In this document: positions 13,321 through 51,825 of the stretch, one piece after another | How positions within the stretch are numbered: position 1 is the first letter of the stretch | How the letters are laid out: every line of letters begins with the position of its first letter | Source: Torpedo marmorata | Taxonomy: Eukaryota | DNA length: 64,000 nucleotides | Assembly: GCA_977017645.1 (NCBI GenBank) | Contig: OZ360223.1 | Span: forward strand, 139,128,001 to 139,192,000 | Reading direction: 5' to 3' | Made by a program: the position numbers and the translations under genes | The notes under the pieces: model-generated | Databases searched by the model: none | Seen by the model: only the letters and a program-made list of their open reading frames with translations | What the model was told of the DNA's origin: nothing

Positions 13321-13329
13321 TTTGGAGTA

Positions 13330-17668: not shown

Positions 17669-18048
17669 ACCCCACAAGTTTGCCCCAGTGAATTCCAGAG
17701 GGGCATACTGGGTCTGACCTGCCCTTGTTGGACTAAGAGAAATCTGATTTCACCAGAAGTGCACTGAGCTGCTTCTGCATGAATTATCCTGACGTTGCCT
17801 GGTGTGGGAGATAAATTAGCAACTCAGCACCTGAGAACGCGACCATCAAGTATCTTCAGGACAGCAAGATTTACCAGGTAAAGCTATGTAAGTACAACAC
17901 CTTTTTTCTATCTACTAACTCCAAGCAGGTCCCCGTCATCAAAGACATCCAGTTGGCCCTCTGCAAGTGCAGGAAGGTGCCTAACTGGAGTGGAGTGGAA
18001 GAGGTGACTAAAGCAGCCTTCAAGTGTGTCCCATCCATGATGGAGTGA
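17669..18048 (+). pseudogene. Histone H3-derived pseudogene
   Basis: Translates PHKFAP..V*PALVGLREI*FHQKCTELLLHELS*RCLVWEIN, then after a frameshift ENATIKYLQDSKIYQVKL..NSKQVPVIKDIQLALCKCRK. This is colinear with H3 RKSAP..[74 protein letters not shown]. Confidence 0.88.
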
Positions 18049-21000
18049 AGAAGATTCACCACCACTTACCCCTTCCTCATTTTCAGCCACACAAAGGCAC
18101 TTTTAAGAGCCAATGAAAAGAGCTATAACCATCCTTATTCTACCCGATTGTTTTGTCTGATTTTACTCTCTACTTCTTGATTCATAGCATTTAATTGTAC
18201 TCTAGTGAGTGCAGGCAGTGTGTGTTTTATGTACCTCAGCATCATAAAAACTGCATTATCCACATACCCTGTGATGCCCTAAAGATCCATCTCACTGAGC
18301 ATATCGTTTATATCCTCATCTTGTCTCCAGCCTTTGCAGTGGCTCAACGGTCGATGGAGGTTCCCAGCAATGCACTCATCACTGGATGTCGGAGGGAAAA
18401 TGTCCCTGACCAAGCAGATGGTGCCAAGGTGGAGTGGAGGGGATGTGGTAACTAAAGCGGCCTACAAGTGTGTCTCATCGATGATGGAGTGAAGACTCAC
18501 CACCACCGACCCCTTCCTCAATCTCAGCCACACAAAGGCTCTTTTTAGAGCCAATGAAAAGAGCTATAACCATCTTTATTTCACCTGAGTGTTTTGTGAA
18601 TTGTTACTCTACTTGATTCACAGCATTTAATTGTACTCTAGTGAGTGCAGGCAGTGTGTGTCTTATGTACCTTTGCACCATTTTATTGCATTATCCCCAT
18701 TCCCGTGATGCCCTGAAGATCCATCTAACTGTGAGCACATGGTTTATATTCTCATCTTGTCTGCAGCCTTTGCTGTGGCTCAAAGGTTGATGGAGGTTCC
18801 CAGCAATGCACTCTTACTGGATGTCGGGGGGGGAAAATGTCCCTGACTAAGCAGATGGTGCCGAGCTGAAGTGGAGGGGAAGTGGTGACTAAATCGGCCA
18901 ACAAGTGTGTCCCACATTGATGGAGTGAAGAAGACTCACAACCACCGACCCCTTCCTCAATCTCAGCCACACAAAGGCTCTTTTAAGAGCCAATGGAAAG
19001 AGCTATAACCATCTTTATTCCACCCGAGTGTTTTGTCTGTTTTTACTCTCTACTTTTTGATTCATAGCATTTGATTGTACTCTAGTGAGTGCAGGCAGTG
19101 TGTGCCTTTTGTACCTCTGCATCATAAAAACTGCATTATCCCCATACCCTGTGATGCCCTAAAGATCCATCTAACTGTTACATATCGTTTATATCCTCAT
19201 CTTGTCTGCAGCCTTTGCAGTGGTTCAACGGTTGATGGAGGTTCCTGGAAATGCACTCTTCTCACTGGATGTCGGAGGGAAAATGTCCCTGACCAGGCAG
19301 ATGGTGCCGTGGAGGGGAAGTGGTAGCTAAAGCAGCCAACAGGTGTGTCTCATCGATGATGGAGTGAAGAGTCACCACCACTGACCCCTTCCTCAATGTC
19401 GGCCACACAAAGGCTCTTTTTAGTGCCAATGAAAAGAGCTATAACCATCTTTATTTCACCTGAGTGTTTTGTGAATTGTTACTCTACTTGATTCACAGCA
19501 TTTAATTGTACTCTAGTGAGTGCAGGCAGTGTGTGTCTTATGTCCCTCAGCACCATTTTACTGCACTATTCCCCTCCCCATTCCCATGATGCCCTAAAGA
19601 TCCATCTAACTGTGAGCACATGGTTTATATCCTCATCTTGTCTGCAGCCTTTACAGTAGCTCAAGGTCGATGGAGGTTCCCAGCAATCCACTCTTCTTAC
19701 TGAATGTTAGAGGGAAAATGTCTCTGACAAAGCAGATGGTGCCCAGCTGGAGCGGAGGGGATGTGGTAACTAAAGCAGCCGACAAGTGTGTCCCACCGTG
19801 GTGGAGTGAAGAAGACTCACCACCACCGACCACTTCCTCATTCTCAGCCACAAAAAGGCTCTTTTAAAAGCCAATGAAAAGAGCTATAACAATCTTTATT
19901 TAACCTGAGTGTTTTGTGAATTTTTAATATACTTCTTGATTCATAGCATTTAATTGTGCTCTAGTGAGTGCAGGCAATGTGTATCTTATGGACCTCAGCA
20001 CCATATTACTGCACTATTCCCCTCCCCATTCCCGTGATGCCCTAAAGATCCATCTAACTGAGCACATGGTTTATATCCTCATCTTGTCTGCAGCCTTTGC
20101 AGTGGTTCAACGGTCTATGGAGGTTCCCAGCAAACCACTCTTCTCACTGGATGTCAGAGGTAAAATGTCCCTGACCAAGTAGATGGTGCCAAGGTGGAGT
20201 GGAGGGGAAGTGGTAACTAAAGCGGCCTACAAGTGTGTCTCATCGATGATGGAGTGAAGAGTCACCACCACTGACCCCTTCCTCAATGTCGGCCACACAA
20301 AGGCTCTTTTAAGAGCCAATGAAAAGAGCTATAACCATCTTTATTTCACCTGAGTGTTTTGTGAATTGTTACTCTACTTGATTCACAGCATTTAATTGTA
20401 CTCTAATGAGTGCAGGCAGTGTGTGTCTTATGTACCTCAGCACCATTTTATTGCATTATCCCCATTCCCGTGATGCCCTAAAGATCCATCTAACTGTGAG
20501 CACATGGTTTATATCCTCATCTTCTCTGCAGCCTTTGCAGTGGTTCAACGGTTGATGGAGGTTCCCAGCAAACCACTCTTCTCACTGGATGTCCGAGGTA
20601 AAATGTCCCTGACCAAGCAGATGGTGCCGAGCTGGAGTGGAGGGGAAGTGGTGACTAAATCGGCCAACAAGTGTGTCCCACATTGATGGAGTGAAGAAGA
20701 CTCACCACCACCGACCCCTTCCTCAATGTCGGCCACACAAAGGCTCTTTTAAGAGCCAATGGAAAGAGCTATAACCATCTTTATTCCTCCCGAGTGTTTT
20801 ATGTTTTTTTTTTACTCTGTATTTCTTGATTTCCAACATTTAATTGCACTCTACTGAGTGCACGGAGTGGATGTCATATCTACCTCGGCACCATTTTACT
20901 GCATATCCTCATACCTCTCGATGCCGTTAAAATCCACATAACTATGAGTATGTGCGTTATATCCTCACATGTGTCTCCTGCCTTTGCAGTGTATCAAAGA

Positions 21001-21640
21001 TCGATTGTCAAGTTCCCAGCAATACGCTCTTCATACTCGAGTCAGAAGGAAAATATCCCTGAACAAAGAGGTGTTCAAATGGAGTGGAGGAAAAAGACCC
21101 TGCTGTACCTGTTGCTGAGTCACGATGGAGGAAGGAAGATACCACCACCGGCCCCTTCCTCATTCTCAGCCACACAAAGGCTCTTGTAAGAGCCAATGAA
21201 AAGAGCTACAACCATCTTTATTTAACCTGAGTGTTTTGTGAATTTTTAATCTAATTTTTGATTATAGCATTTAATTGTGCTCTGGTGAGATCAGGCAGTG
21301 TCTTATGGACCTCGGCACAATTTCACTGCACTATCCCCATACCCATGATGCCCTAAAGATCCATATAACTGAATTTAGGCTTTATATCTTCACCTTGTCT
21401 GCAGCCTTCTCAGTGGAACAAAGTTGATTGACATTCCCTGCAATCTATTGTTCTCACTGGATGTCAGAAGGAAAATGTCCCTGATCTAGCAGATGCGTCC
21501 CAGCTGGAGTGGAGGGGGAGTAGTGACTAAAGCGTCCTGCAAGTGTGTCTTAGCTATGATGGAGTGAAGAAGAATCACCACCACTGACCCCTTTCTCATT
21601 CTCAGCCCCACAACGGCTCTTGAGAGGCACCAAAGATCTA
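17990..21640 (+). repeat. ~440-bp tandem array, each unit ending in a histone 3' stem-loop plus HDE
   Basis: Stem-loop starts at 18096, 18537, 18976, 19412, 19857, 20302, 20742, 21179 and 21615 (degenerate), spaced 436-445 bp. Confidence 0.92.
18976..19009 (+). promoter_or_regulatory. Histone mRNA 3' stem-loop and U7-complementary downstream element (representative copy; same stem-loop at 20302 and 20742)
   Basis: ACAAA-GGCTCTTTTAAGAGCC-A matches the SLBP stem-loop consensus and is followed by AAAGAGCTATAAC. Confidence 0.85.
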
Positions 21641-22189
21641 CAACCAGTTTGTTCCACCCAAATGTCCTGTCAGTTTTTGGTCTGTGTATTTCTTGATTCA
21701 CAACATTTAATTGCACCTGAGTGCTTAAAGTGCACGTACGTCTTGTTTACCACAGCACCATTTTACTGCTCTATCACCCTATCCCTTAATACCACTAATA
21801 TCCACACAATTATGGTTATATTTTTGGAATGAATGTTAAAGAGTAAATAATTTATGGAAAATTTGCCTTGATGTGAGTTAAAACTGTTGATGTCAGCTAG
21901 TTTTGAGTCTAGTCCCCTCTTCTCGATGTTTTGAGCAAGAAAACATTTTCTCTCCATCTCTCCTTTCATTCCTATAACCCTCATAGTGTTTCATCACAGT
22001 GCCAGTCGAAACCGACCTTGGGGACGATGTTACCCCTTTCTCTGGAGATCTGTATCTTGTAATTTGAAAGTCTCTTATGGGTCTTCAGTTTAAGGGGAGG
22101 ATAACTTGGGTGGCTGCCATGTGAAGGAGAGAGGGTGGCCATCTCTGTTTCACCTGCCTTCCCATTTCACCAAAGGTCGATTGATGGGT

Positions 22190-22390
22190 CAGAGGGAATA
22201 TGTCCCTGAGGGTGCCCGACTGAAGTGGTGGGAAAAGTCCCTCCAAGCAAGTGGTGACTAAAGCTGACTGCAAGTATGACCCAGCCATGATGGCGTGAAG
22301 AAAACCTACCATCACCGACTGCTTCCTTATTCTCAGTGCCACAATGGCTCTTGTAAGAGCCAATTTACAGAGCTATAACCATCTTTATTT
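22190..22390 (+). repeat. Detached partial copy of the 440-bp unit with stem-loop
   Basis: GTGGTGACTAAAGCTGACTGCAAG...GGCTCTTGTAAGAGCC (22346-22361), then AGAGCTATAACCATC. Confidence 0.8.
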
Positions 22391-22647
22391 CACCCGTGTT
22401 TATTTTTTTTTCTCTGTAATTTGCATTTATGATAGTTCAAAATGGTCCAGCCTGTTAGATTTCTGATTGTTAACCCTATGTCTAAATGTCTTAGCTGAGG
22501 ATCATTTTTGTCTGAAACCATCCTTTTGGGTTTTGGAAGAATAGTTCACGTTCATTCAGAGGGTGCGTTGCAAACATTTTTGTCATGGGGACATTTACAT
22601 TGTGATTTGACACACAATATATTTTGAATCCCCTGCTGAAACAATAG

Positions 22648-23125
22648 ATGAGGTGGGATGCAGCCAGAGGGCAGGAGTGGGCTTTGGGCCACAGCAGTGT
22701 CACATACAGCAGCACTGAAACCACATGCCACCTAATGACCAATTGCTTCCATGTCATCGAAGCGAGACTTCAAATGTTTTTATCCACAAACTCATTTTGT
22801 GCACTATCTTCTATTTCTTTTAGGTCCACCGGAAATCCACTGAGATGCTCCTCCACGAACTGTGCTTCGAGTGCCTGTTGCTGGAGATCGATCAGAACTT
22901 CAAGACAGACCTGCACTTCCAGAGCTAGGCCAGCATGAATCTATGGGGAGCAGCATTTACGTGGTGAAGCGGTGAGGTCTCCAACCTGTACGCCATCCCT
23001 GCTGAGCAGATCGCCAGCACAACACCTAGCTGGCCCACTGCATCTACAAGAAGTGCACCGAGGACCCTCCTTCACTCTCACTCCAAACAAAGGCTCCTCC
23101 ACAGAAAAAGCTATAACCAGCTTTA
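22648..23125 (+). pseudogene. Histone H3-derived pseudogene with shared upstream module
   Basis: From 22824 it reads VHRKSTEMLLHELCFECLLLEIDQNFKTDLHFQS*ASMNL, matching H3 [40 protein letters not shown], then SNLYAIPAEQI. A decayed stem-loop/HDE lies at ~23090-23118. Confidence 0.88.
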
Positions 23126-23404
23126 TTCAACTCATCCTGTACTATTTAATTTACGCAATGAATGCAAGATATTTGGCATTATATGTTAATAAATGAATAT
23201 CTTAAATTAACTGTAATTTGTTATTCTCTATGTATTTAAGTGCACTATCGCGAAGAATTCTACTCCTGAGCTGACACCCACTTCCTCCCTGTCCACATTG
23301 TCCCAGCAAACTTAATGAAGGTTTGAAGAAGATTAATTTCTCTTTCTCAGGATATTGTAGCCCTTAAGAATGGGTTACTGGGAATTCTGGGCACATGGGA
23401 ATTC

Positions 23405-27210: not shown

Positions 27211-27332
27211 AGACTGAAGAGGTGGGAACTGTTTTTTCCTGGAGTGGAGGAGGTTTGGAGGGGACATGATTGGCCTATATTGAAGTAAGAGGGATATAGA
27301 CAGAGATTGAAGGGAACATTGCGGAATACCAG

Positions 27333-27556
27333 AGGTAGATAAAGGTAAAGGTTCCATTATTGTCATGTAATACTACATTTAGAATGTAACATACATGAAA
27401 TTCTTTAATTTTTGTCTATCGTAAGGCGCCCCTCACAGACACCTACAGCACCTGGTGTTCCTAGGCGGTCTCCCCTCCAAGTACTGACCAGTACTGTGCT
27501 TGCTTAGCTTCGGAGATCAGACAATCCCAGTCGTATTCAGGCTATTGGTGCTGTTG
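27333..27556 (-). mobile_element. 5S rRNA-derived SINE (SINE3-like)
   Basis: Reverse complement contains TCTGATCTCCGAAGCTAAGCA..TGGTCAGTACTTGGAGGGGAGACCGCCTAGGAACACCAGGTGCTGTAGG (5S boxes A and C), then a non-5S tail ending in CCTTTA repeats. Confidence 0.85.
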
Positions 27557-27930
27557 CAAGAGCATTATGTTAAAACTACTGCAGAATACATTAGTGAGAC
27601 TACACTTGGACTGTTGGTATAGGACAGATATTGTTAAGCTGGAAAGGGTTCTGTAAAAATTCACAAGAATAATTCAGATGCAGATTTATTGTTAGAGTAC
27701 ATACATGACATCACAGACAACCCTGAGATTCTTTTTCCTGTGGGGGAGGCAGAATTACCACTTATTGGTGGTGCAAACAAAAACTGTACACAGCGTAAAC
27801 ATGTAAACAAATAAAAAACTAAACAGATAACGAGTGTAAACAAACTGACTGTGCAATACAGAGAGAATAAAAAATATCAATAAAGTGCACAAGTAAGAGT
27901 CCTCAAATGAGTCCCTGATTGAGTTAGTTT

Positions 27931-32919: not shown

Positions 32920-35364
32920 AATTCTAAAGCAAGATTGAGTTAGTTTTTGAGGAGTTTGATGGTGGAGGGGTAGTAGCTGTTCCTGAAACTGGTGGTGTGA
33001 GTCTTGTGGCACCTTTAACTCTTTCCTGATGGCAGCAGCAAGAACAGAGCCTGTGCTGGGTGGTGTGGATCCTTGATGATTGCTGCTGCAGTCCATCGGC
33101 AGTGTTCCCTCGAGATGTTCTTGATAGTGGGGTTTTGCCTGTGATGTCCTGGGCTGTGTCCACTATCTTATGGAGGGCTTTATGCTCAGGGGTATTGGTG
33201 TCCCCATACTAGACCATGATGCAGCCAGTCAGCACACTTTCCAGCACACATCTGTTGAAATTTGCCAGGGTTCCTAGTGTCATACCAAACCTCCACAAAC
33301 TACTGAGGAAGTAGAGGCGCTGACATGCTTTCATCACGATGCCATTAGTGTGTTGGGTCCAGAAAAGATCCTCCAAGATAGTGACTCCCAACAATTTAAA
33401 TTTGGTTACCCTCTCCACCTCTGATCCCCCAATGATCACTGGATTGTATACCTCTGGTTTTCCCTTCCTGAAGTCAACAATCAGCTCTTTGGTTTTGGTG
33501 ACATTGAGTGCAAGTTTGTTTTTACCGGGACTGGTAGGCTTGAATTATAAGGAGAGGCTTGATAGGCTGGGACATTTCTCCCCAAAGCATCCAAGACTAA
33601 GGGGAGCTGGGGGGGAGAGGTGGTTGGGGGGCGGGGTGGAAGCATCTTATAGAGGTTTATAAATTCATGAGCGGCATAAATATAGTTAATAGTCATACAG
33701 TAGCTGTTTCCTCGAGCAGGAGAATGTTTAAAAATCAAGCTCATAGATTTAAAGTGAGAGGGGAAAGATTTAAAGGGGACCTGAGGGGCATGCTCTTCAT
33801 ATAGAGGATGTTGGGTACATGGAAAAAAGCTGCCAGAGTAAGTGGAGGAAGCAGGGACAGTCTTAAAAGTAGAAAGGCATTTAGCAGGTGACTGGATAGG
33901 AAAGGTTTCGAGGGATATGTGCCAAATACAGGCAAAAGGGGAAGTTTGGTCAGCATGGTTAATTTGGGCTGAAAGGCCTGTTTCCAAGCTGTAGCACTCA
34001 GTGGCTGTATAACTCAGGGCCCACAATTTTAAAATAAAAGGTTGCCTTTTTTAAATGACGGTGACTTGGAATGTTTTTCATCAGAAGGTCATGACTTCTT
34101 GAACCCTTTTTCAAAGAGCAATGGTCAAAGGATTTTTGAATATTGTTGAGGCAGAATTGAACAGACTCTTGAGAAGTAAGGGTGTGAAAAATTACCAAGG
34201 GTGGGTGAGAATGTGGAGCTGAGGTTACAATCAACTCAGCCATCATCTTATGTAAAGGCAGCTTGTGGCTGAGTGCCCTGCTCCTGTTCTAAATGCAAAC
34301 GTTCAATTGACTAAAAGAGCAGCATCCTCACACACTCAGATCTGAGAGTCTGTGAACCCACTATAACTTGTTCTTTTGCATGAAGCCACTCAGACACAGG
34401 GTAGTTAATGCAGCAAAGTTAGATATTTGAAATGTTTGCCACCTGCCATGTTCTGAAAATATTTTGAGAGTCAGAATGATGTGATCTGAGCCCAACAACA
34501 GTCATGTACATGATAAAATGGTAAAGTCCACAACATTTCAATGCTCAATTCAGCACCTAATGTTCAGAATGCCTTATCATATTGCATAAATGTTGTCACA
34601 CCTACAATTGATCCACAAGGTTCAGTACGTTCAGTATTGTTTCAAGAACTAGCTAATCTATCTCCCTCCTGTAGGCTTCCTCATTGCTGTCTGTGATCCT
34701 GCCGACAACCATGGTGTCATCGGCAGATTTGCAGGTAGCATTTGAATTGTGTCTAGCCACACAGTCATAGGTGTAGAGTAGTAGAGCAGTGTAATACAAA
34801 CTGTTCAATGCAGAAAAAAATATTCAAGAATAAATAATATGCAAAGTAAGAGTCCTCAAATGAATCTCTGAGTTTGTTGTTGAGGAGACTGATGGTGGAG
34901 GGTTAGGAACATACCTGCAACAATGCCTGCTGTTCTGGAACTGAATGAACGACAGCAACTGAGTTAGACACAAGAAGTACCTCTCGTGCCTGTTCCACCA
35001 TTCAGTTTCATAAGACCATAAGACAGGAGCAGAAAATAGGCTTCAGCCCATTGAGTCTGCCCTGCCATTTAATCATGAGCTGATCCATTTCCCACTGCCC
35101 AACCTTTTCCCCACGCAATGGTCCTGAGGGTGATGGGAACTATGACTACAAGATCAGGCTAAAATATTTTAAAGGGGCAGTCACTGCTAGCTATTTCCTT
35201 TTATCTCCTCAGTACATTCATGAGTAAATGACACCACTTTACATTTGCCCTCAAGACTTAACGACACAGCGATTCCACCACTCGTGAACCTCTTAAAAGT
35301 TTGATTGGCATTTGAAGTTGAGAATAGTCAGATAACAACGTGGGTGGAATAATACAGATCAACA

Positions 35365-35680
35365 GGGGCGTCTAGAAGAACCATTTGGTCTGAGAGTGAG
35401 GGAGGTTTTCACACACAAGTTGGATATCTGTCTGCATGGTGAGCGGTGAGGCAAAGGTGGTGCATAAGTTGGTCTTGGTACCTCACCGGAGAAGTCTGGG
35501 TCCCTACAGCTCCCTAAGGTAGGTGAAGGGAGCTCTGTCCAGATGTTCTTGGCGATATGATGATAGAAAGAGAATTTATTTTGAGAAGATTCGTTGCTGG
35601 AAACATTACAAGCCCTGCTTGATGTCAGGCAAGAAGCTGTCATCAGGTGGGAAGTGTGCTCAAGAGTTATACTTGAGAAC
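35365..35680 (-). pseudogene. Histone H3-derived remnant with shared upstream module
   Basis: Minus strand reads IAKNIWTELP.. and KTNLCTTFASPLTMQTDIQLV (H3: [32 protein letters not shown]). Upstream CCCACCTGATGACAGCTTC matches 51453. Decayed stem-loop at 35365-35382. Confidence 0.78.
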
Positions 35681-36347
35681 GGTGTAAAATTATGATGTAC
35701 ATACCCTCGGGGAAGGGACAAAAATGTTCGCAATATACGCCGAGTCTGGCAGTGTGACAGAACACATGTATTCTTACAGGGGTCAAAGGATGGTTGCAGA
35801 GAAAATTGATACTCGCCCAATAAATTTAGACAAAGGAGTCAGTCTTAAATCTAGGGGGCCAGACCATTTTGAATTCCTATCAAGGCAAATTTCTCACAAA
35901 TGTTGAACATGAAATCTCTATACCATTGCTTTAAAGCATATACCAATAATTATGTGGATATTGATGACATGAGGTTGATCATTCAGTAAATTTTTGCAGA
36001 GGTAGATATGACGCGCGCACGTCATATCCATTCGAATGCAAATTTTGAACGTAAATCAACACATTTAAAAAAAATTATTTAGAATTTTAAATCACTTGAT
36101 AATACATATTGTAAAATGCAAAATTATCAAAATACATGTGATATATTTTCACACCCCCTCCCTCCCTCCCTTCCCTAACCCTCCCACCCTTACTATTCTA
36201 ATAAAATAAAAAGAAAGAAAGAAAGAAAAAGATAAAGTAAGGAGAATGTCAATCTAAAAAGAACAACTATAAGCTAATTTTATTGTTGGACACAGGTTCA
36301 CCAGTCAGATCCGATATGCAGAGATCTTCAAATCCTTAAACCGACAG

Positions 36348-39300: not shown

Positions 39301-42300
39301 AGATTCAGGTCATCCATTAAATTAATAATTCTTTTAACTATTTTAGGTCTAACAGATGTTCTAGTAGTTTTGTCCATATTTGCATTAAGACAACAATTAA
39401 AATCTCCACCAATTAAAATATTTTCCTTAGCCTCAGATAAATGTAAAAAAGTATCTTGAATAAATTGTTCATCATCTGGATTTGTAACATATAGATTTTA
39501 AAAAGTCCATGTTTCTGAATAAATTTGACAATGTACTAAAACATATCTACCAGCTATATCGGTCACTACTGATTGTATTTTAAATGGTAATTTTTTATTA
39601 ACTAAAATCGCTACACCTCTCGCTTTAGAATTAAAAGATGAAGCTACTACATGTCCCACCCATTCTCTCTTTAACTTTTGATGTTCCTTATCAGTCAAAT
39701 GTGTTTCCTGTAAAAAAGCTATATCTACTTTCAATTTTTTAATATGTGCCAAAGTTTTTTTCCTCTTAATTGGATTATTAAGCCCATTAACATTAATACT
39801 TACAAAATTTATACTTCTAGAATCCACCATGACTAAACTTTAAACATTCTCTATCTGTCAGATCCACTGGCATCTCCCTCCTAATCTGTTGATCACATAT
39901 TTTCTCCTCAAATAGAATGGAAAAACAGAAAAGTAAGAAAAAATAATAGCCCATAAATAACACCAGATTATATACCCCAGTGTCACCCCCCTCCGTCGCT
40001 CGAGAAGCGGTTCTCACCGCTAAGGTAGTGGTGGTTTCGGAAAAAGTCCCAATGAGTCCACCTCCCCCAAACAGATAATTATTCATACAACTTGTATTCA
40101 ATTAACTCCTCCCAAATTTTCACAATCTCCTTCTATTTGAACCAAAGCAGCTTCTTCAGTTATCAAACCAAGTATCTCGTTGTCCCGACTTGCTTGATCT
40201 TCTTGCATTTGTTGAACAGAGACCGAAGGATAGATCCTTCTCAAACGCGGAAGATTTCTCGCATGGAAAAGAGCTTGCCCAGGGTCCATAAATAATAAAG
40301 AATTGTCACCATCATTTTGAACCCTCAAAATCGCCGGATATTTAAACGAAAATTTATAACCTTTATCCCACAATATTGCCTTTGCAGGATTAAATTCTTT
40401 ATGTTGTTTGACCACCATAGGACTTAAATCAGGATAGAAGAGAACTCTACTATCTTGAATCATCATCGGAGCTCCATGATCTCGTGCATATTGAATCACT
40501 GATCTTAAAATTTTCTCTCTGTCTTGATACCTTAAACACTTTATCAAGATTGGACGTGGTCTCCGATCTTGCTGATTTCTTCTTCCAATCCTATGAGCTC
40601 GCTCAAGCTCCACTGGTTGGTCAAACTCAAAAGTCTGTTTCAACCAATCTTGAAAAAATTGAGTTGTATCCATAGTCTCAGTATTTTCAGGTAATCCCAA
40701 TATTTTCACATTATTTCTGCGACTTTGATTTTCCATCTGATCTATCTTCTGTGTCAAATAATCTCTTTGCTTTTCCCATCCAACAAAAGTATCTTCCATT
40801 TTATCCACTCTATCTCTACAGTCTTCAACTTCATGCTTATTAGATTCAATCTCCTCTTCTATTTCTTAACTCTTACATCCACTTTACGTACAATATTTTC
40901 CATTTTTCCCATATTCTGTTTCATTTCTATAAATTCATCTTGTATTTTTTGTTCAATCTTACCTATGGCCATATTAAGTTTAACTTCCATTTTTCCTTCT
41001 AATTTAGCAATAGCCTGTAAAATACTCTCTTGACTATTTTTTACTAACCAAAATTGCAAAATCTCCTGGTGATGATGGATTTCCGATAGAGTTTTATAAG
41101 AAGTTTAAAGATTTACTGATACCTATATATATGGAAGTATTGACTCAAATAAAGGAAACTCATTTATTACCGAAAACATTTTTAAATGCTGTTATTACAG
41201 TTATACCAAAGAAAGATAGAGATGTATTAAAAACTGAGTCATACAGACCTATATCACTGTTGAATGTAGATTATAAATTAATGGCAAAAATTTTGACAAA
41301 CAGATTAGCTAAGTTTTTACCGCTTTTAATAGATTCAGATCAAGCAGGATTTATTAAAAATAGATAGTCAAAGGATAATATAGCAAGATTAATAAGTTTA
41401 ATTAATTTGCAAAAAAGGAAACAGGATTTACCGTTGGTGATAACATTAGATGCAGAAAAAGCATTTGATAGATTAGAATGGAATTTTTTATTTAAGGTTT
41501 TAGAGAAATATGGGTTTGGAAATACTTTTATAAATTGGATTAAGACTATATATAAGGAACCTACAGCAAGAGTAATTACAAATGGTCAGATATCATCTAA
41601 ATTTTCCTTGACGCGATCAACAAGACAAGGATGTCCTTTATCACCTGCTTTATTTGTATTGGCAATAGAACCGCTAGCTGAAATGATTAGGAAAGATATC
41701 AATATAAATGGGATTAAAGTAGGTGCAGAAGAGCATAAAATTAGTTTATTTGCAGATGATGTATTAATATATATGACAAAATCTATTGGATCGCTTCAAC
41801 AATTAGCTAAGATACTGAGGGAGCATGGTGAGATATCTGGTTATAAAATAAATTCAGATAAGAGTGAAATAATGGCTTTATCTCAAGGAGATTATACTAA
41901 ATGTAAAGAAGTTACAGGATTTAAATGGGCTAAAGAAGCAATTAAATATTTGGGAGTTAAAGTAGATACAAAATTGGAAAATTTATATAAATTAAATTAT
42001 ATACCTCTATTTCAGAAAATAAAGAAAGATTTGGAAAATTTGAAAGATTTATCTATAACCCTAATGGGAAGAGTGAATTGTATTAAAATGAATATCTTTC
42101 CAAGAGTTCAATATCTTTTTCAATCTATACCTTTTGGAATTCCTCAAAAATTTTTTAAAGATTTAAAAATCATTGTTAGAAAATTTTTATGGAAAGGAAA
42201 ATTAGCAAGGGTAAGTATGGATAAATTAACTTGGGAATATGAGATGGGTGGATTACAACTCCCCAATTTTCAATATTATTATAAGGCAGCACAATTAAAG

Positions 42301-44249
42301 TTTATTAATGAATTTTTTGATTTAACTAAATCTACTGCTTGGATTAATATAGAATTGAATAATATAGGGGAAAGATATAAGGAAGATATTATTTATAAAT
42401 GGAATTCTAAATTATTATTAGTTAAAAAGAAAAAATCACCGATTATTAAACATTTATTGGAAATCTGGACTCAGTTAGACAATGAGATAGGACGAAAAGG
42501 GTCATTATCTTTGAATATGCCATTGTATCAGAATTTATTGTTACCTTTTTCTATTGATAATCAATTTTTAAAACTATGGTTTCAAAAAGGAATTAAGAAG
42601 ATTAAAGATTGTTTTGAAGCTGGAAGATTTGTTACATTCTCGAGGTTGAAAGAAAAATTTGGAATAATGGATAATACGATTTTGGCTTATTATCAGGTTA
42701 AAGGATTTTTAGTTGAGAAATTGGGGAATCAATTAATAACTCCTAGACAGGATGGATTAGAATTATTAATTACTAATGGAAATGTTAACAAGTTTATATC
42801 ACAAATGTATAGATTACTTCAGAGAAAGATGCCAAAGGTAGGATTGCATAAATCAAGATTAAATTGGGAATCAGATTTAAATATTAGTATAGATGAAAAA
42901 CATTGGAAAGAATTATGTAAATTGAGTATGACTAAAATTATTAATGTTAGATATAGATTAGTACAATATAATTTTTTTCATCAATTATATTTAACACCTA
43001 AAAAATTAAAGAAATTTAATCCGGCACTATCAGATATGTGTTTTAGATGTAGGGATGAAATAGGTTCTTTTGTACACTGTACATGGTCATGTTTAAAAAT
43101 TCAAAATTTTTGGTCTAAAGTTAAGGATTTTTTGGATAGAATTTTTAATATTACGGTTCCAATGGACCCTATGTTATTTTTATTTGGAGATATTAAAAAA
43201 TTTAGTATTAGAAATAGATTGAATATGTATCAAATAGAATTTTTACGAATTGTTTTAGCGGTTTCAAAAAAATGTATCGCTATTACTTGGAAATCAGATT
43301 TAGATTTGAGTTTAGATAGATTACATGCAGAATTACGTTCTTGTATACCATTGGAAAAAATTACATATAATTTATGTGATAAATATCATTTCATTTTGAA
43401 AATTTGGAGCCCATATATGAGAATTATGGGTATGAATTAATTCTCTAGAAGTTGGTACCGCTGGCAAAAATAACCTCCAATATATAAATAGAATTAGCTT
43501 GTAATTTGTTTTCTCCTCACTTTAACTCTTTAATTCTTTATTATTCAACTCTTTTCTTTTTTTTTCTTTATAACTAACATTCTTTTTTTTTCTTCTTTTT
43601 TTTTTAGAATAGAGCTGGGAGGTTGGGGAGGGGAGGGTGGGAGGGGGGAGGTAATATATCACATGTATTTTAAATGATATACTATTTTTGATTCATGTAT
43701 TTTGTGATTTTAAAATTTAAATAAAATTATTTAAAAAAAAAAAATTCAGCCAAAGGTTCTATTGCCAAAACAAATAGGGCTGGTGATAAGGGGCATCCCT
43801 GCCTCGTAGAACGTGTTAAAGGAAATTTTGGCGATATTTGTCCATTTGTAATTACTTTAGCTGTAGATTCTCTATATATAGTTTTAATCCAATTTATAAA
43901 AATATTCCCAAAACCAAATTTCTCTAACACCTTAAATAAAAAATTCCATTCTAATCTAGCAAAGGCCTTTTCTGCATCCAACGTTACCACCAGTGGTAAA
44001 TCCTGTTTCTTTTTATGTAAATTAATTAAACTTAGTAATCTAGCTATATTATCTTTTGAATATCTATTTTTAATAAAGCCAGCTTGATCTGAATGTATCA
44101 AATTTGGTAAATATTTAGCTATTCTATTAGCCAAAATTTTTGCCATTATTTTATAATCTACATTTAATAAAGAAATAGGACTATATGACTCAGTTTTTAA
44201 TACATCTCTATCTTTCTTTGGTATAACTGTAATAATAGCATTCAAAAAT
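36348..44249 (-). mobile_element. Middle L1 (pieces 36348-38422 and 43743-44249), 5'-truncated in the RT domain
   Basis: ORF 43727-44245 ends IEPLAE and continues as PLAELIRIDP at 38420, across the TSD AATTCAGCCAAAGGTT. PolyT at 36348. Confidence 0.9.
38423..43742 (+). mobile_element. Inner near-full-length L1 with 5' inversion: ORF1, spacer and ORF2 N-half inverted (38423-41060, minus); ORF2 C-half, 3' UTR and polyA direct (41061-43742)
   Basis: ORF1 motifs ENQSRRNNVKILGLPE, ELERAHR, FYPDLS and YPAILRV. The inverted part ends ..LKSGK and the direct part starts KSPGDDGF. 677-aa ORF at 41407-43440. 16-bp TSD at 38407-38422 and 43743-43758. Confidence 0.93.
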
Positions 44250-45264
44250 ATATAGGCTCCATATTTTCAAAAAGAAATAATATTTGTTACGTAAATTATA
44301 AGTAATTTTTTCAAGTGGTATAGCTGAATGAATTTCTACATGCCATCTCTCTAACCCTAAATCTACGTCAGATTTCCATGTAATAGCAATGCATTTCTTA
44401 GAAACAGCTAAAGCAATTCGCAAAAATTCTATTTGATACATATTTAATCTCATTTTAGTACTAATTCTTTTAATATCTCCAAACAGAAATATCATAGGAT
44501 CCATTGGGAGTATAATTCTTAACACTTTGACTAAAAACTTTTTAACTTTCAACCAAAAATCATATATCTTTGGACAAAGCCATGTTGAGTGTACAAAAGA
44601 ACCTTCCTCTCTATTACATCTAAAACATAAACCTGATAATGTCAGATTAAATTTCTTTAATTTCTTAGGTGTTAAATATAATTGATGCAAAAAGTTATAT
44701 TGCACCAACCTATATCTAACGTTAATAATCTTCGTCATACTTTGTTTACATATTTCTTTCCAATGCTCCTCATCTATTGTTACATTCAAATCTGATTCCT
44801 ATTTTAATCTTGATTTATGAATTCCTAATTTAGGTATTTTTCTCTGTAACAGTTTATACGTTTGAGAAATAAATTTGTTTACACCTCCATTAGTACCTAT
44901 AATTCCAATTCACTTTGTCTTGGTAAAGTCAATCTATAACCCAACCTTTCAACTAAAAATGCTCTAATTTGATAATAAGCAAAAAGTGTATTATTTAATA
45001 CATTAAACTTCTCTTTCATTCTTTGAAATGTAATAAATTTACTAGCTTCAAAACAATCATCTATTTTTTAAATTCCTTGTTGAAACCAAATTTTAAATAA
45101 TTGATTATCAATAGTAAATGGAATAAGTTTATTTTGATATAAAGGCATTTTTTTCGAGAAATTAATCCTTTCCCTCCTATCTCCCTATCCACTCTGTTCC
45201 ATATTTCTAACAAATGTTTTAAAATACTGACAAAAAAACAAGACAAGACACTCGAGTGAAACAA

Positions 45265-45610
45265 TGCTGGTTGTAGCTCTTTATGTTGGCTTTATAAGTG
45301 GCTTCATGGAGGTGAGAATGAAGAAGTAGTTTGGTCCAGGTTACAGAACAGGTGGAGTAAAATAGTATTGTCGGTCTTTTCAAAGGTACTTTGAAAAGAG
45401 GGAGGGTTTCACACGCTTCCTCTGTGGATGTGGCCGACCAGCTGGATGTCCGTCAGCGCGGTGACCGGTGGCGAAAGGGTGGTCCATAGGTTGATGTGTC
45501 AGAGCCTCACCAGGAAAGCCAGGGTCCCTGCACACCCATGACAGATGAGCTCTGGGAGGGCAGGTCTTTTCGGACGTCCTCAGCAATCTCTCAGACCAGG
45601 CGCTGGAAGG
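45265..45610 (-). pseudogene. Histone H3 fold remnant
   Basis: Minus strand reads SFQRLV*EIAEDVRKDLPSQSSSVMGVQ...FLVRL*HINLW..PVTALTDIQLVGHIHRG. Decayed stem-loop at ~45288-45303, followed by AAAGAGCTACAACC. Confidence 0.88.
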
Positions 45611-45915
45611 AGTTTAAGACCACAAGTTATAGGAGCAGAAATAGGCTATTCAGCCCATTGAGTCTGCCCCACCATTCAATCATGAGCTGATCCATTTTCC
45701 CACTCAGCCTCGCTGCCCAGCCTTCTCCCCATAACATTTGATGCTCTGGCTAATCAATCTCTGCCTTAAATACACCCAATAATTTGGCCCCCACAACCGC
45801 ATGTGGCAACAAATTCCAAAGATTCACCACCCTCTAGCTGAAGACATTTCTTCATATCTCTGTTCTAAGCAGATGCCCTACACGATGGGCTGAATAGCTT
45901 CTTTCTGTTTTTATG

Positions 45916-46161: not shown

Positions 46162-46499
46162 AGGTGGTATGTGAGTGGAATAAAAAAGGTTGAGAACCAC
46201 TGGCCCAGGTGCAGCTCGGGACTTTTGAAATGTTTGTACCAATCTTTCAAATCATTTTTTCAATTTATTTACAGCACGGTAGAAACAGATTCCGGCCATT
46301 TAAACCGGTGCCGCCCAATTACACCCAAATTAACCTACAGCCTGTGGTTGTGTGAACATTAATGGCAGGAGTTGGTTTATAGTTCAGCAAATAGTCGCTG
46401 ATGTGGAGATGACGCGTGCACCTTGTACTCGATCGAGCGCAATTAAACTGTGAACATAAATAGAGAACAAAAAAAGACAAGACACTCGTGTGGAACAAT

Positions 46500-46720
46500 G
46501 CTGGTTGTCGCTCTTTACGTTTTATCTGATGCCATGTATGTACTCTGACAATAAACCTGAACTTTGAGCTTTTGAACGTTGGCTCTTAGAAGTGCCTTTG
46601 TGGGGCTGAGAATGAGGAAGGTCCAAGTTGGTGTCCTGCAGGTCCATGACGGCGGACCAGGTCTGTCTTGATTTGTGGAGGAGCAGCCCGTTGAATTGAC
46701 TGCGGCACACTCGAGGGGTG
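46500..46720 (-). pseudogene. Internally deleted H3 remnant with stem-loop
   Basis: GLLLHK..SAVMDLQDTNL. Stem-loop GGCACTTCTAAGAGCC at 46581-46596. A ~55-bp LINE 3' tail with an ACGTT duplication sits between stem-loop and HDE. Confidence 0.72.
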
Positions 46721-47124
46721 CTTTATTTATCATTGGCATCAAGATAAATTTCCTCAATTTGGTGAACCTTTTTAAAGTCGCAATGTACCCCGCGACCGGC
46801 ACTGTGAAAGCACACAAGTGTTCTTACAGGAATGGTTGCAGAGAAAATCGATTCTCGCCGGGAAATTTAGATGAAAGGGCCAGCCTCAAAATCAGAGGGC
46901 AAGACTATCGAGTTCCCATCCAAACAAATTTCCCACAAAAGTTGGACTTTTGATATCTGGGTACCATTCCTTCAAAACATATACCTAAAATTATGAGAAT
47001 ATTGTCGCTGCGGTATATATGACGTGCGCACCTCGTACCCACTAGTACGCAATTAAACGTTGAATTATATTATTATTATCGACTTATAGAGACTAAAGAA
47101 AAATACACTGGTGAGGAATAATGC

Positions 47125-47390
47125 TGGTTATAACTCTTTACGTTGGCTCTTGTAAGTGCCTTTGCGGGGCTGAGAATGAGAAGGTGGGTTAGGTCCGAGT
47201 TGGCGTCTTCACAGAGGTTCACCCGTTAAATCACACGGTCCACGACCGAGTCAAACCAAGGCTTGATTTAAGGCGGAGCAGCTCAATGGCTTCCCCGTAA
47301 TTCAGATCAACAGTGGCAGTGAGATACTCCGGAATGACGGGGGCACCTTCGACGGGTGTTTTAGTCATCATTGCCATTGAGATAAATTTC
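47125..47390 (-). pseudogene. Mosaic histone remnant (H2A-like, then H3-like pieces) with stem-loop/HDE
   Basis: GAPVIPEYLTA (H2A: GAPVYLAAVLEYLTA), YGEAIELLR (H3: [10 protein letters not shown]), VNLCEDAN (H3: VGLFEDTN). Stem-loop at 47145-47160, then AAAGAGTTATAACC. Confidence 0.6.
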
Positions 47391-47760
47391 TCCAATTAAG
47401 TGAACTTTATTACATTCAGTCTGACACGATGTTGAGAATCAAAGACCAGAGGTAGATATTAGCGGAACATTCGGGGACGGTGACCGCGCGGCGTAATGGC
47501 CCTGAGATCGGTGTGGAATAGGATCTATGAATAGTGGAGCAGGCGGAAATGTTAGTCACGACTAGTTATGCATTTACGAGTAAATGACCCCACTTTCTAT
47601 TCGCCCTCAAGACGAAAATATTCCTGAAAGTAACCACGACTCTACCACGCGCGCGATCCGACTCGATCGCAATTCAAAGTTAGGAATAAATAAAAACTCA
47701 GAGACAAAACAAGCACACAAGAGATTCTCAGGTGGGAAAAAATAGATGGATCGTGTTTTC

Positions 47761-48030
47761 AGAGCTCTTAAAAGAACCTTTGTTTGTTTGAGGTGAGCTC
47801 GGGAGTCAGGCACCTCCCCGTGGCTGCGGCGGACCAGCTGGGTGTCTGGGTCCCTGCAGCTCGGTGACGGATCGGGGAATTTCAGGTGGTGCCGGGTCTC
47901 CTTCAGGACCGTGGCGGTGGATCGGCAGCAGCGAGGCTTCTTCACGCAGACACCGCCTCAGTCGCCAGTCGCTCAGGTCGATCTGCTTGGTTCCCGCCAC
48001 CTTTCCTCCTCCGATGGTCCAGGGTGAAGA
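47761..48030 (-). pseudogene. Histone H3 pseudogene with internal deletion
   Basis: GTGGCGGGAACCAAGCAG (MARTKQ-like), VKKPRCCRSTATVLKETRHHLK (H3: [22 protein letters not shown]), DTQLVRRSHGE (H3: [11 protein letters not shown]). Stem-loop AAAGGTTCTTTTAAGAGCTC at ~47762-47781. Confidence 0.85.
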
Positions 48031-48430
48031 CTGGCACCGCACCTCGCAATTTGATTGGCTGTCTTTCACACCGTGGCATTCCCGCCTCATCGTTGATCGG
48101 ACCGCAGTCTCTGGGGTTTGAACCGAAGCTCAACATGATCTGCTGGAGGAACTCAGCAGATGAAGCAGTATTGCTGGGAGAAAAAGAATGATCAACGTTT
48201 CGAGCCTGAGCCCCTTATCCAGATTGAGGTGTTTCTGCTCGAAACGTCGACGATTCTTTTTTCTCTCACAGATTCTGCTGCACCCGCTGAGTTCTTCCAG
48301 CAGATTGTGTTTAGCTTCCCATTCCAGCATCTGCAGTCTCGTGTGTGTTTTGGGTTTAAACCGAATCTGATCAGGGAATTGATGCCTTGGAAATCAATCG
48401 TGCGGATTGAGATATCCCGCCAACTTCAGA
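48031..48430 (-). promoter_or_regulatory. Putative promoter of the 47.9k H3-like copy, interrupted by a repeat at 48128-48350
   Basis: CCAAT at 48054-48058, GGCGGGAA at ~48079-48086 and TTGGCGGGA at ~48415-48423. Colinear with 50885-51060. Confidence 0.55.
48128..48350. mobile_element. Palindromic element of the Penelope-like terminal-repeat type
   Basis: CTGCTGGAGGAACTCAGC...GCTGAGTTCTTCCAGCAG inverted arms, CGAAACG motifs on both strands, flanked by duplicated GGGTTT(G/A)AACCGAA. Confidence 0.6.
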
Positions 48431-48569
48431 GCAACAATATTGAGAAGATTTAGTTTTGCACATATCAAATAGTTTGTGACTAGAAACGCTGTGGGTCCCG
48501 CGCTGTGCCAGACAAGTAACTGGTCATTGGATATGGGGTGCTCTCAGTGTTGCTGTATCTGACAAAGTT

Positions 48570-49150
48570 CAGAGTCAGAGAGTTATGCAGCTCGAAAATA
48601 GGTTGTTCAGCCCAGCATGTCCATGCTGACCCAGTTGTCCAACTGAGCTCCTCTCATTTTCCTACGTCTGGCTCACACCCCTTTAAATCTTTCTGTGCAT
48701 CCATCCAGCTATGGTTTAAACTTGGTAATTATATCCACCTCCAGTTTCCTCTGCAGTTCCTTCCATCTGTCCACCAGCTCATGTGGAAAAAGTAGCCCCT
48801 CAGGACCCTTTAACATCTTTCTGCTATCCCCTTAATTCACTGTATTTATACCCCTCTTGATTTTATATCCCACTATAATAAGGTCACCCCTCTGCCTCCT
48901 TCCCTCCAAAGAAAAAGCCACAGCCTAACCAGTCTTTCCGCACAAGTCAATCCCTTCTCTTCGAGCACCATTGTTGTGAATCACTATCTGCTAATAGATC
49001 TAATAGAATTATGGTCACTTGTTCAGAAGTGCTCCCCCACTGATACTTTAGTCACTTGCCCTGCCTCATTTCCCAATAGGAAGTCTCGTGTGATGCCCCT
49101 TCTCCAGCAGGGCTATATAAAAATAGCTTGAAATAACTTTCCTTGACACC
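48570..49150 (-). mobile_element. Degenerate CR1 3' fragment
   Basis: Reverse complement resembles the CR1 ORF2 end and 3' UTR seen at 33520-33990. Confidence 0.55.
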
Positions 49151-49539: not shown

Positions 49540-50750
49540 TCATGGTAAATTAAGCCTCACAAATTTACTCTGGGTTATCTTGAAGAGGCGATGTGTGGAA
49601 TTGATGAGGACAGGGCGATGCATGTTGTCTGCATGGATTTTGGAAATGCCTTTGACAGGGCCCCATATGGTTGGCTTGTCTGGATGGTGATGTAACATGG
49701 GATTCAGAGGGAATTAGCCAATTGTTTACAAAATTGACTTGGTGGTAGGGGTCAGGCAGTTGTTATGGAGTGTTGCTTTTCAGATTGGAGGCCTATAACC
49801 TGTGGTCTACTGCAGGATCTTTTTAATTCAACTCTTTATTTAATGTGCTGAAATAATTGTCATTTGTCATCTATGTTAATGATTTAGATGACAATGTTTT
49901 TATCTTGGTTTATATGTTTGTGGATGTCATTAACGTTGCTGTAGACAGTGAAGAAGGTTATTTTGTTAAAGCAGGATCTGGATCAACTATGAATTTGGGT
50001 CAAGGAATGTCATGTCAAACTTTGCTCTGACAAGTGTAAGTTGCTGCATTTTGGTAAGTTTAACCAGAACAAGACATACAGTAAATGGTAAGACCTTGGA
50101 GAATGTTGTAGAACAGAGAAACCCAGAGGTGAAGGTCCATAGTTCCCCAAATTAGTGACACAGATAGACAAGGTGGTGAAGAAGGCATGTTTGCTATTAT
50201 TTGTCAAGATATTGAATTCAAGAGCTTGGACATCATATTAGTACTGTACACATCATTGGTGAGACCACACAGAGCATTGTGTGCCATTCTGGTCTTCAAG
50301 ATATAGGGACAATGTTATAAAGCTGGAAAGAGTGCAGAAAAGTTCTACAAGGATATTGTCGGGACTGGCGGGTTTGAGATATATTGAGGAGTTAGATAAG
50401 CTGGTACGTTTTCTCTGGAACATTGGAGTCTGACAGCTAATAGAAGTATGTAAAATCATGAGGGGCACAGATAAGGTGAACGGTTCCAATCATTTCTCCA
50501 GGGTTGGGGAACCTAAAGCCAGATGGCGCAGGTTTAAGATAAGAGGGGAAAGATTTAAAAGGGATCTGAGGGTCATTTTTTCACTCGGATGGTTATATTG
50601 AAGGAGCTGGTAGTGGCAGGTACAATTACGACGTTTAAAAAGCATAGATAGGAAATGTTTCAAAAAATTTCAGCCAAATAAGAGAGAACAAGGCACAAGC
50701 TCTGGCAGACAACTTGGTGGGAATAATCAAGTTGGGCCGAAGGGCATGTG
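49540..50750 (+). mobile_element. Degenerate CR1 ORF2 (RT to 3' end)
   Basis: Reads MDFGNAFDR, FVIYVNDLD, DKCKLLHFGK, LVRPHTEHCVPFWS and KLERVQKSSTRILSGL. Confidence 0.85.
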
Positions 50751-50884
50751 GGCTCTGTGAACATTGTCACATACACACTGAAAGCCCCTCACACACAATT
50801 ACTTGCTTCTTGTCAGTCATGGAGAGAGATGTATAATTTTTCCAGTCACAAACACTTAAATATGTGCAAAATGACATCTTTTCG

Positions 50885-51030
50885 ATTCTGAAAATTGGCG
50901 GGAATTCTCACATCGGATAATTTGGCCCCAAGGTTCTATTCTCCAGTCAGATTCGGTTTGAACCCTGTTGTCAGGGCCCCAGCGGCCCAACCAGATTTGA
51001 GGCGGGAATCGCCAACGTATAAAAGGCAGC
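50885..51030 (+). promoter_or_regulatory. Putative histone-type promoter
   Basis: E2F-like TTGGCGGGAA at 50895-50904, GGCGGGAA at 51001 and TATAAAAGG at 51018-51026. Marks the start of a CpG-rich stretch. Confidence 0.6.
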
Positions 51031-51045
51031 CTGTCGGGTCGTGCG

Positions 51046-51825
51046 GTGCCAGTCTTCGCGACGATCGGAAGTGGAAAGGAGGTCGCAGGAGAGAAGGAGG
51101 TCGCAGGAGAGAAGGAGGTCGCAGGAGAGAAGGAGGTCGCAGGAGAGAAGGAGGTCGCAGGAGAGAAGGAGGTCGCAGGAGGGAAGGAGGTCGGGACGAT
51201 CGGAGGAGGAGGGAAAGCGGTCGGTGGAGGGTAGACGGTCGGTGGAGGGAAGGCGGTCGGGACGGTCGGTGGAGGGTAGGCGGTCGGTGGAGGGTAGGCG
51301 GTCGGTGGAGGGAAGGCGGTCGGGACGGTCGGTGGAGGGAAGGCGGTCGCGATCAGTGACCGGCGACTGAAGCGTCGTGCAAGTGCGGTCGAGGCGGGGA
51401 CAGGTTGTGGGGAACGGGCCACACCGGGGTCACGGACAATCCCACACCACGTCCCACCTGATGAACAGCTTCTGCCCTGTGGTCAAGCGGAACTTGCAAT
51501 GTTTCCGGGAACATATCCTTCTATCGTTTCAAACTCAAATTTATCTATTATCACCACAGATATCCCCGAGCTACGTCCCCGCAAACTGCCCTTCCCGCGC
51601 CTGGTCGGGGAGATCGCCGAGGACGTCCGGACAGACCCGCCCGCCCAGAGCTCGGCCGTCGTGGAGCTGCCGGCACCCAGACTTTCCTGGTGAGGCTCTG
51701 ACCTGTGCGCCGCCTTCGCTGCGCCGGTCATCGTGCCCCCAGGCATCCAGCTGTTCCGCCACATCCACGGGGAAACGCTGGACACCCGACCTCACCGCAG
51801 GACAACAGGTTCTTTATGGTCTTTT
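51046..51825 (+). pseudogene. H3-like gene copy with repeat-expanded N-terminal region, frameshifted in helix 2
   Basis: One frame runs TIGSGK(EVAGEK)n..TVGGGKAV (with TAG stops) into ELRPRKLPFPRLVGEIAEDVRTDPPAQSSAVVEL. After a frameshift it reads DLCAAFAAPVIVPPGIQLFRHIHGE. Confidence 0.82.
51075..51348 (+). repeat. 18-bp tandem repeats (AAGGAGGTCGCAGGAGAG x6, then GGTCGGTGGAGGG(A/T)AGGC variants)
   Basis: Directly visible. Confidence 0.92.

What the first reader, a model, noticed from the sequence alone, without database searches (positions are those of the whole stretch)
17669..51825. Dispersed family of chimeric, histone-derived gene-like units (H3 core with H2B/H2A-like pieces) keeping histone 3' processing signals
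Seen: at least seven segments translate colinearly with histone H3 (17.7k, 22.8k, 35.5k, 45.5k, 46.6k, 47.9k, 51.6k), plus a mosaic at 47.3k. They lie on both strands, most are followed by a stem-loop, and several share non-coding flanks. Some share substitutions versus canonical H3 (EIAEDVR at 45.5k and 51.6k; LLH at 17.7k, 22.8k and 46.6k), so they appear to descend from an already divergent ancestor rather than from separately decayed canonical genes. Known: canonical H3 is nearly invariant and histone clusters normally carry whole H2A/H2B/H3/H4 genes. Inference: this is either a lineage-specific divergent histone-variant family undergoing birth and death, or a repeat family assembled from captured histone fragments. 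No copy here is intact.
Basis: partly seen in the sequence, partly recalled or inferred. Interest (0 to 1): 0.82.

Follow-up and report, generated by a model that had tools for sequence, protein, structure and literature searches.

The report
Decayed histone H3-only tandem array
This stretch holds the broken remains of a head-to-tail array of one histone H3 gene, not hybrids of different histones; its fragments have seeded new tandem repeats, and some copies carry a hint that the protein once evolved unusually fast.

Summary
H3 homology, shared flanks, shared derived sites and histone 3' signals are real. The H2B/H2A chimera is not supported: the 'H2B' piece is the H3 N-terminal tail, and the 47.3k 'mosaic' aligns colinearly with the 17.7k H3 copy. 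The flank order (upstream flank, promoter, 5'UTR, H3, stem-loop, HDE, downstream flanks) repeats, so the units are deletion derivatives of one ~1.3-kb H3.2-type unit that was copied as DNA. They fall into two sub-lineages and all are broken; four share a 4-nt frameshift followed by TGA. One result argues against plain neutral decay: third codon positions are far less diverged than first and second ones on the path to 22.8k (stem dN/dS ~5.6, P=0.006; at most 2 of 2000 neutral simulations). No living relative was found in protein searches. Verdict: a histone pseudogene array in an unusual form, possibly the remnant of a fast-evolving H3 variant.

The parts
13278..17668 (+). 37-bp satellite, 119 copies, CCAAT-rich; homologous to the transcription-start/5'UTR region of the H3 unit; abuts the truncated 5' end of the 17.7k copy
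   Evidence: best match among 2808 windows is the 47.9k 5' end, 40.8 vs next 26.0; 33.2 vs max 22.6 in 300 shuffles; 29 CCAAT/ATTGG per kb. Direction of derivation is inferred
17671..17976 (+). H3 pseudogene, lineage A, residues ~25-133; 4 in-frame stops and several indels
17976..21809 (+). 436-bp tandem array (8.3 copies to 21621, last flank to 21809) of tail-only H3 minigenes: 5'UTR, ATG, H3 0-43 with frameshift, 3'UTR, stem-loop, HDE, flank Y
   Evidence: ORFs from the start codons run 4-49 codons
21797..22205 (+). flank Z and 5' remnant
22200..22422 (+). tail-only H3 unit (residues ~10-43) with perfect stem and HDE
22409..22827 (+). flank Z followed by upstream flank X
22828..23146 (+). 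H3 core pseudogene, lineage A, residues 54-135; 2 stops, deletions of 4, 2 and 7 nt; stem-loop broken, HDE with one change; unusually conserved third codon positions
35114..36067 (-). unit Y-Z-X-H3 core remnant (lineage B)-broken stem-loop-flank W
45222..45615 (-). H3 core pseudogene, lineage B, residues 66-135, with an A-type 3' end; broken stem, HDE kept; 5' end cut by a repeat insertion
46348..47004 (-). unit Z-multiply deleted H3 (lineage A)-stem-loop with one mismatch-duplicated HDE-flank Y
46996..47420 (-). the 'mosaic': multiply deleted H3 (about residues 19-109), sister of 46.6k; stem-loop with one mismatch, HDE, flank Y
   Evidence: 55.8 vs 17.7k (shuffle max 38.4), 111.1 vs 46.6k (32.7); no PDB match for its 54-aa frame
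47492..48576 (-). most complete unit: X-promoter-5'UTR-H3 with start codon lost and internal deletions-stem-loop with G-U pairs-flank W; a palindromic insertion sits at 48125-48318
50747..51929 (+). X-promoter with TATAAAA at ~51018-5'UTR expanded as 18/27-bp minisatellites (51076-51349)-tail remnant-second X-H3 core (57-133, lineage B, GC-enriched)-broken stem-loop-flank W
52201..52401 (+). flank Z remnant
   Evidence: 35.5 bits

Best explanation
A replication-dependent H3.2-type gene was duplicated head-to-tail on its own, as a ~1.3-kb unit (upstream flank X, promoter, 5'UTR, H3, 3'UTR, stem-loop, HDE, flanks Y/W and Z), without H2A or H2B. The array split into two lineages (A, B), lost coding function, and was remodelled by unequal crossing-over, deletions, an inversion and LINE/SINE insertions. 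Pieces were amplified again: a 436-bp tail-only minigene array, a 37-bp satellite from the 5' end, and 18/27-bp minisatellites. No copy in the window can make a histone. SHOWN: homology, module order, broken frames, sub-lineages. INFERRED: unit length, order of events, direction of satellite origin, lack of function.
For: Module order repeats, Y/W then Z then X, on both strands, and the reversed controls are near empty. Homology includes the promoter and runs hundreds of bases past the cleavage site, which points to DNA-level copying. A spacer copy has no histone match in six frames, and the flanks are 38-45% GC against 48-70% for the H3 remnants. Four copies share a 17-nt instead of 21-nt segment and a TGA at the same codon. 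Tandem copies and 22.2k share a frameshift at codon 32. Coding identity within lineages (0.62, 0.76) is about equal to flank identity (0.58-0.71). 17.7k and 22.8k show GC-to-AT decay with 50-56% of Arg-codon sites hit. Within-lineage pairs show no codon-position constraint. SAVM-type residues mark H3.2 (PMC3380720 Table 3).
Against: Plain neutral decay does not reproduce the low third-position divergence: 22.8k vs 51.6k differ at 30/67, 31/66 and 11/65 by codon position, reached in at most 2 of 2000 simulations taking the best of six pairs. Stem-loop plus HDE is somewhat better kept than the rest of the 436-bp unit (7/30 vs 170/400 variable columns, P=0.03; P=0.17 without copies 7-8). H4 and H1 were not tested with reference sequences. 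The rest of the genome was not available.
Confidence: 0.75

Rival explanations
1. Compatible with the best explanation but changing its meaning: before dying, the array encoded a fast-evolving, stem-loop-type H3 variant (perhaps germline) under selection for amino-acid change.
For: Four-copy site patterns by codon position: internal branch 6/9/2, 22.8k-only changes 5/7/0. A codon model with a canonical root gives dN/dS 5.6 on the two stems (P=0.006) and 6.8 on stem A plus 22.8k (P=1.5e-4, branches chosen after seeing the data). Neutral simulations with CpG and GC bias rarely match; GC3 of 0.84 or more arose in 0 of 438 conditional runs. Precedent for fast evolution, amplification and loss: short H2A variants (10.1101/165936, abstract).
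Against: Only 59 codons and four copies; the host's canonical H3 DNA is unknown, so the root is a prior. The internal-branch count alone is marginal (P=0.054; 34-71 of 2000 simulations). 17.7k and 45.5k look neutral, and 51.6k fits AT-to-GC bias (21 vs 8). The signal is strongest downstream of the shared frameshift and stop, where H3-frame selection should not act unless those deletions arose late and independently; the sequence does not settle this. No protein with the derived residues was found.
Confidence: 0.3
2. The 436-bp minigenes are functional: transcribed and cut by U7 snRNP into short stem-loop RNAs, or acting as repeated cleavage or silencing sites behind the CCAAT-rich satellite.
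For: 5 of 9 array copies keep a perfect stem; the HDE core sits 8 nt behind the stem in 9 of 9 matched sites; the stem-loop-to-HDE window is the least variable of the unit (7/35 vs 177/410, P=0.007). U7 represses human LTR12 elements and lincRNAs through HDE-like motifs near CCAAT boxes (10.1101/2023.08.25.554787, abstract).
Against: Conservation is not significant without two mosaic copies (P=0.17) and spans about 90 bp, wider than the signals. The ORFs vary from 4 to 49 codons. The promoter module is not detected in the array.
Confidence: 0.08
3. A mobile repeat family that captured histone fragments.
For: Copies lie on both strands among many LINE and SINE insertions.
Against: Native gene order and head-to-tail continuity. 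The inverted-repeat search of three regions showed mainly homology between oppositely oriented units and one internal palindrome (25 of 69 pairs were shown for the largest region). Target-site duplications were not tested systematically.
Confidence: 0.06
4. True H3/H2B/H2A chimeras.
For: H2A scores 23.7 on 47.3k (0 of 200 shuffles), above H3 at 20.4. H2B beats all shuffles on two tail pieces.
Against: On those tail pieces H3 scores twice as high. 47.3k aligns end to end with 17.7k and 46.6k. Window-wide H2A and H2B searches stay within shuffles.
Confidence: 0.04

Closest known systems
Pseudogenes of replication-dependent histone clusters under birth-and-death evolution (PMC13525598, passages)
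   Same: Intronless H3.2-type genes with stem-loop and HDE, duplicated locally and decayed.
   Different: Here the repeated unit carries H3 only (the review defines arrays as quartets or quintets), every copy in the window is dead, and dead copies were re-amplified.
Histone orphons / solitary histone genes (concept recalled; the word was seen only in reference titles)
   Same: Histone-gene copies separated from intact partners.
   Different: Not a single displaced copy but a tandem lineage with secondary arrays; its position relative to the host's real cluster is unknown.
Satellites seeded by other repeated sequences such as rDNA spacer or transposon parts (PMC5615363, passages)
   Same: A short piece of a repeated locus amplified into a satellite.
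   Different: The apparent seed is a histone gene 5' end, and a second array is a whole minigene. No paper held all three terms 'satellite DNA', 'derived from histone', 'histone gene'.
Rapidly evolving germline histone variants: short H2As (10.1101/165936, abstract); primate H3.Y (PMC3380720, passages)
   Same: Lineage-specific amplification and loss; possible excess of amino-acid change.
   Different: No intact ORF, expression or ortholog is shown here.

Membership tests
Replication-dependent H3 (H3.2) pseudogenes | Colinear homology to H3 | tested here: met
Replication-dependent H3 (H3.2) pseudogenes | H3.2 (SAVM) rather than H3.3 (AAIG) residues | tested here: met
   SAVM at 46.6k, SAVV at 51.6k, SSVM at 45.5k; definition in PMC3380720
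Replication-dependent H3 (H3.2) pseudogenes | 3' stem-loop followed by HDE | tested here: met
   12 distinct stem-loop sites (17 matches, 1.2 expected); 14 of 18 HDE matches at family sites (2.7 expected); all below the Rfam gathering score
Replication-dependent H3 (H3.2) pseudogenes | Disabling stops, frameshifts or deletions | tested here: met
Replication-dependent H3 (H3.2) pseudogenes | Neutral divergence across codon positions | tested here: inconclusive
   met for 17.7k, 45.5k and within-lineage pairs; not met for 22.8k and marginal for the stems
Canonical histone array (quartet or quintet) | H2A and H2B in the repeat unit | tested here: not met
Canonical histone array (quartet or quintet) | H4 and H1 in the repeat unit | tested here: inconclusive
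   no reference sequence obtained; one spacer copy has no histone match in six frames against PDB; no intact ORF
Functional histone variant | Intact ORF with a complete histone fold | tested here: not met
   no closer protein: top 120 of 2226 hits at most 53% identical (one short-coverage limit: word-based search), best 150 of 586 at most 58%
Functional histone variant | Expression and chromatin incorporation | not testable with these tools
   no RNA or protein data
Processed (retro) pseudogene or SINE | Homology ends at the mRNA 3' end; no promoter | tested here: not met
   shared promoter, HDE and downstream flanks
Transposon with captured gene fragments | Element termini and target-site duplications around units | tested here: inconclusive
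   no unit-bounding inverted repeats among the pairs shown; target-site duplications not tested
Transposon with captured gene fragments | Genome-wide dispersal | not testable with these tools
   host genome not available

The most novel reading that the evidence does not exclude
The locus is the remnant of a lineage-specific, positively selected H3.2-derived variant that was amplified as an H3-only, stem-loop-processed array, may survive intact in related species, and after death gave rise to a 5'-end satellite and a minigene array that still carries U7 processing signals.
Probability: 0.22. Interest if true: 0.75.

Novelty: new variant of a known kind. Interest (0 to 1): 0.42.

Why it matters
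If it is only decay, it is a clear worked example of a histone gene turning into tandem repeats at three scales (18-37 bp, 436 bp, ~1.3 kb), and a warning that decayed H3 tails can look like H2B or H2A. If the codon-position signal holds, it records adaptive evolution of H3, one of the most constrained proteins, outside mammals, and names a locus where a living variant can be sought.

Tried and rejected
Pfam found no histone family in 27 translated frames; it also missed the proven H3 copies, so it is uninformative. The 131-aa ORF at 51298-51690 had no hit at E<=0.01 among 167 candidates. The 'H2B C-terminus' reading of the tandem piece had no PDB match and was replaced by the H3 tail. An intron before codon 54 was considered; the AG-ended tract is present only at 22.8k and the segment is the upstream flank X. 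An L2-LINE origin of the 37-bp satellite scored within shuffles for the three L2 pieces tried (22-143 of 300); the satellite also did not match the 51.6k 5' end (168 of 300), so the link rests on the 47.9k copy and on adjacency to 17.7k. A conserved micropeptide was rejected (ORFs of 4-49 codons). The simulation used branch lengths three times too long and was replaced. The bacterial promoter scan is irrelevant here. No tRNA genes. Codons next to indels (80-85, 93-97, 103-108, 117-122) were dropped, and 35.5k, 46.6k, 47.3k and 47.9k were too short to include. Literature searches that found no direct precedent in their listings: 0 papers; 0 papers. No supplements were read. No collection of eukaryotic DNA was available, so related loci stayed unchecked.
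Full report
Setting. The window is repeat-rich DNA with no intact histone gene among 124 ORFs of 90 aa or more (read by eye). It holds LINE fragments (RVT_1 and endonuclease matches), whose nearest Atlas clusters are eukaryotic, the top three most often chordate. A cartilaginous fish is my guess from recalled repeat types; no call tests it.

Observation. H3 homology is well above chance. The 35.5k, 46.6k and 47.9k copies pass the per-unit test, and 47.3k passes through its sisters. Each is a start codon plus H3 residues 0-43 joined directly to the 3'UTR, stem-loop and HDE.

Chimera test. I obtained named fish H2A and H2B references. Neither gave a signal above 20 shuffles anywhere in the window. 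Per unit, H2B beat all 200 shuffles on two tail pieces (23.9, 23.3), but H3 scored 48.3 and 51.6 on the same DNA. H2A scored 23.7 on 47.3k against H3 at 20.4, which is the one result in favour of a mosaic. However, 47.3k aligns in order along the whole 17.7k H3 copy (55.8, shuffle max 38.4) and with 46.6k (111.1, max 32.7), and its open frame has no PDB match. I read it as H3 with deletions. H4 and H1 had no reference; one spacer copy gave no histone hit in six frames.

Anatomy. Profiles of the flanks occur only around these units and in a fixed order: X, promoter, 5'UTR, H3, 3'UTR, stem-loop, HDE, Y or W, Z, then X again. Y and W are distant homologues. Summing the modules gives a unit of about 1.3 kb (inference). 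Promoter and downstream flanks are shared, so copying was at DNA level (inference). About 14.8 kb of the window is family-related, counting the satellite and small insertions.

Lineages and lesions. Lineage A (17.7k, 22.8k, 46.6k, 47.3k, the array, 22.2k) and lineage B (35.5k, 45.5k, 51.6k, with 47.9k by its W flank) each share derived bases within but not clearly between them (trees). 45.5k has B coding sequence on an A-type 3' end, so units recombined. Four copies have 17 instead of 21 nt between codons 92 and 99 and a TGA at the same place; 17.7k has 18. Whether the 22.8k and B deletions are one event cannot be shown. Diagnostic residues are H3.2-like (PMC3380720, passages).

3' signals. 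Of 17 sites, 6 have perfect stems, all behind tail-only units. The HDE core lies 8 nt behind the stem in 9 of 9 matched sites, in the 8-13 nt range given in 10.64898/2026.06.11.731563 (passages, 12 of 25 shown). The signals vary less than the rest of the array unit with eight copies (P=0.007; P=0.03) but not with six (P=0.17). This is weak evidence of maintenance.

Secondary repeats. The 37-bp satellite ends two bases before the 17.7k H3 remnant begins. Its best match in 35 kb is the 47.9k 5' end. The 39-bp and 27-bp minisatellites of the flanking regions match the same 5' end (0 of 300 shuffles each; the 27-bp consensus rests on 3 monomers). The link rests on one copy, and its direction is inferred.

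A result against plain decay. 17.7k and 22.8k show GC-to-AT decay; 51.6k shows the reverse bias. Yet 22.8k keeps 84% GC at third positions while a third of its first and second positions have changed. A codon model gives dN/dS 5.6 on the stems (P=0.006) and 6.8 on stem A plus 22.8k (chosen after seeing the data). Neutral simulations with CpG and GC bias reach the largest pairwise gap in 0-2 of 2000 runs, the internal-branch gap in 34-71 and the largest single-copy gap in 14-40. The caveats are 59 codons, an unknown host root, and a signal that is strongest behind the shared stop. I leave it unexplained; a past variant phase is the most direct reading.

Living relatives. None was found. The best 120 of 2226 profile hits are at most 53% identical to the 51.6k copy, none of 65 named hits carries the AED, EDV, DVR, LLH or LHE motifs, and the best 150 of 586 hits among 1.84 billion representatives are at most 58% identical. 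Clustering could hide a variant close to canonical H3.

Comparison. It works like, and meets the tested features of, replication-dependent H3 pseudogenes under birth-and-death (PMC13525598, passages). It is not a quartet or quintet array, not a retrocopy family and not a living variant. What is unusual is the H3-only unit, the minigene array, the 5'-end satellite and the codon bias. My searches (listings only) showed no direct precedent; the library lacks most subscription papers and I read no supplements.

Verdict: new variant of a known kind, interest 0.42.

Noticed in passing
window:45916-46161 (+) and 27340-27558 (-): Two related 5S rRNA-derived elements (Rfam 46.8 and 37.2 bits) share about 245 bp at 83% including a non-5S tail; they look like a 5S-derived SINE (label recalled).
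   Followed up: partly
window:48125-48318: A 194-bp palindromic insertion (61-nt arms, 80% complementary) between flank X and the promoter of the 47.9k unit; MITE-like.
   Followed up: partly
window:10474-10847: An element with inverted ends, a 32-bp x4 internal repeat and an inner palindrome; it contains an HDE-like match at 10699.
   Followed up: no
window:1-5700 and 53000-64000: Degenerate ~4.4-kb tandem units on both sides of the region, mixing LINE-like pieces with 39-bp minisatellites that resemble the H3 unit's 5' end. The 39-bp arrays give long low-complexity ORFs with no Pfam match.
   Followed up: partly
window:27924-45225: At least four AT-rich LINE copies at 75-90% identity, some inverted or nested, split the H3 array; the longest open frame is 690 aa at 41368-43440.
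   Followed up: partly
window:17976-21621: The 436-bp array has higher-order structure: copies 2, 4 and 6 share indels and are 91-95% alike, while copies 7 and 8 are mosaic.
   Followed up: partly
window:45400-52000: Local GC and CpG enrichment (CpG o/e 0.8-0.9 at 46-48k and 50-52k) coincides with AT-to-GC bias in the 51.6k copy (21 vs 8), as GC-biased gene conversion would give (inference).
   Followed up: partly
window:22940-22990, 35460-35510, 51680-51710: In 3 of the 4 copies with the 4-nt deletion, a second deletion near codon 104 brings the net change back to a multiple of three, leaving one TGA between them. This may be chance.
   Followed up: no
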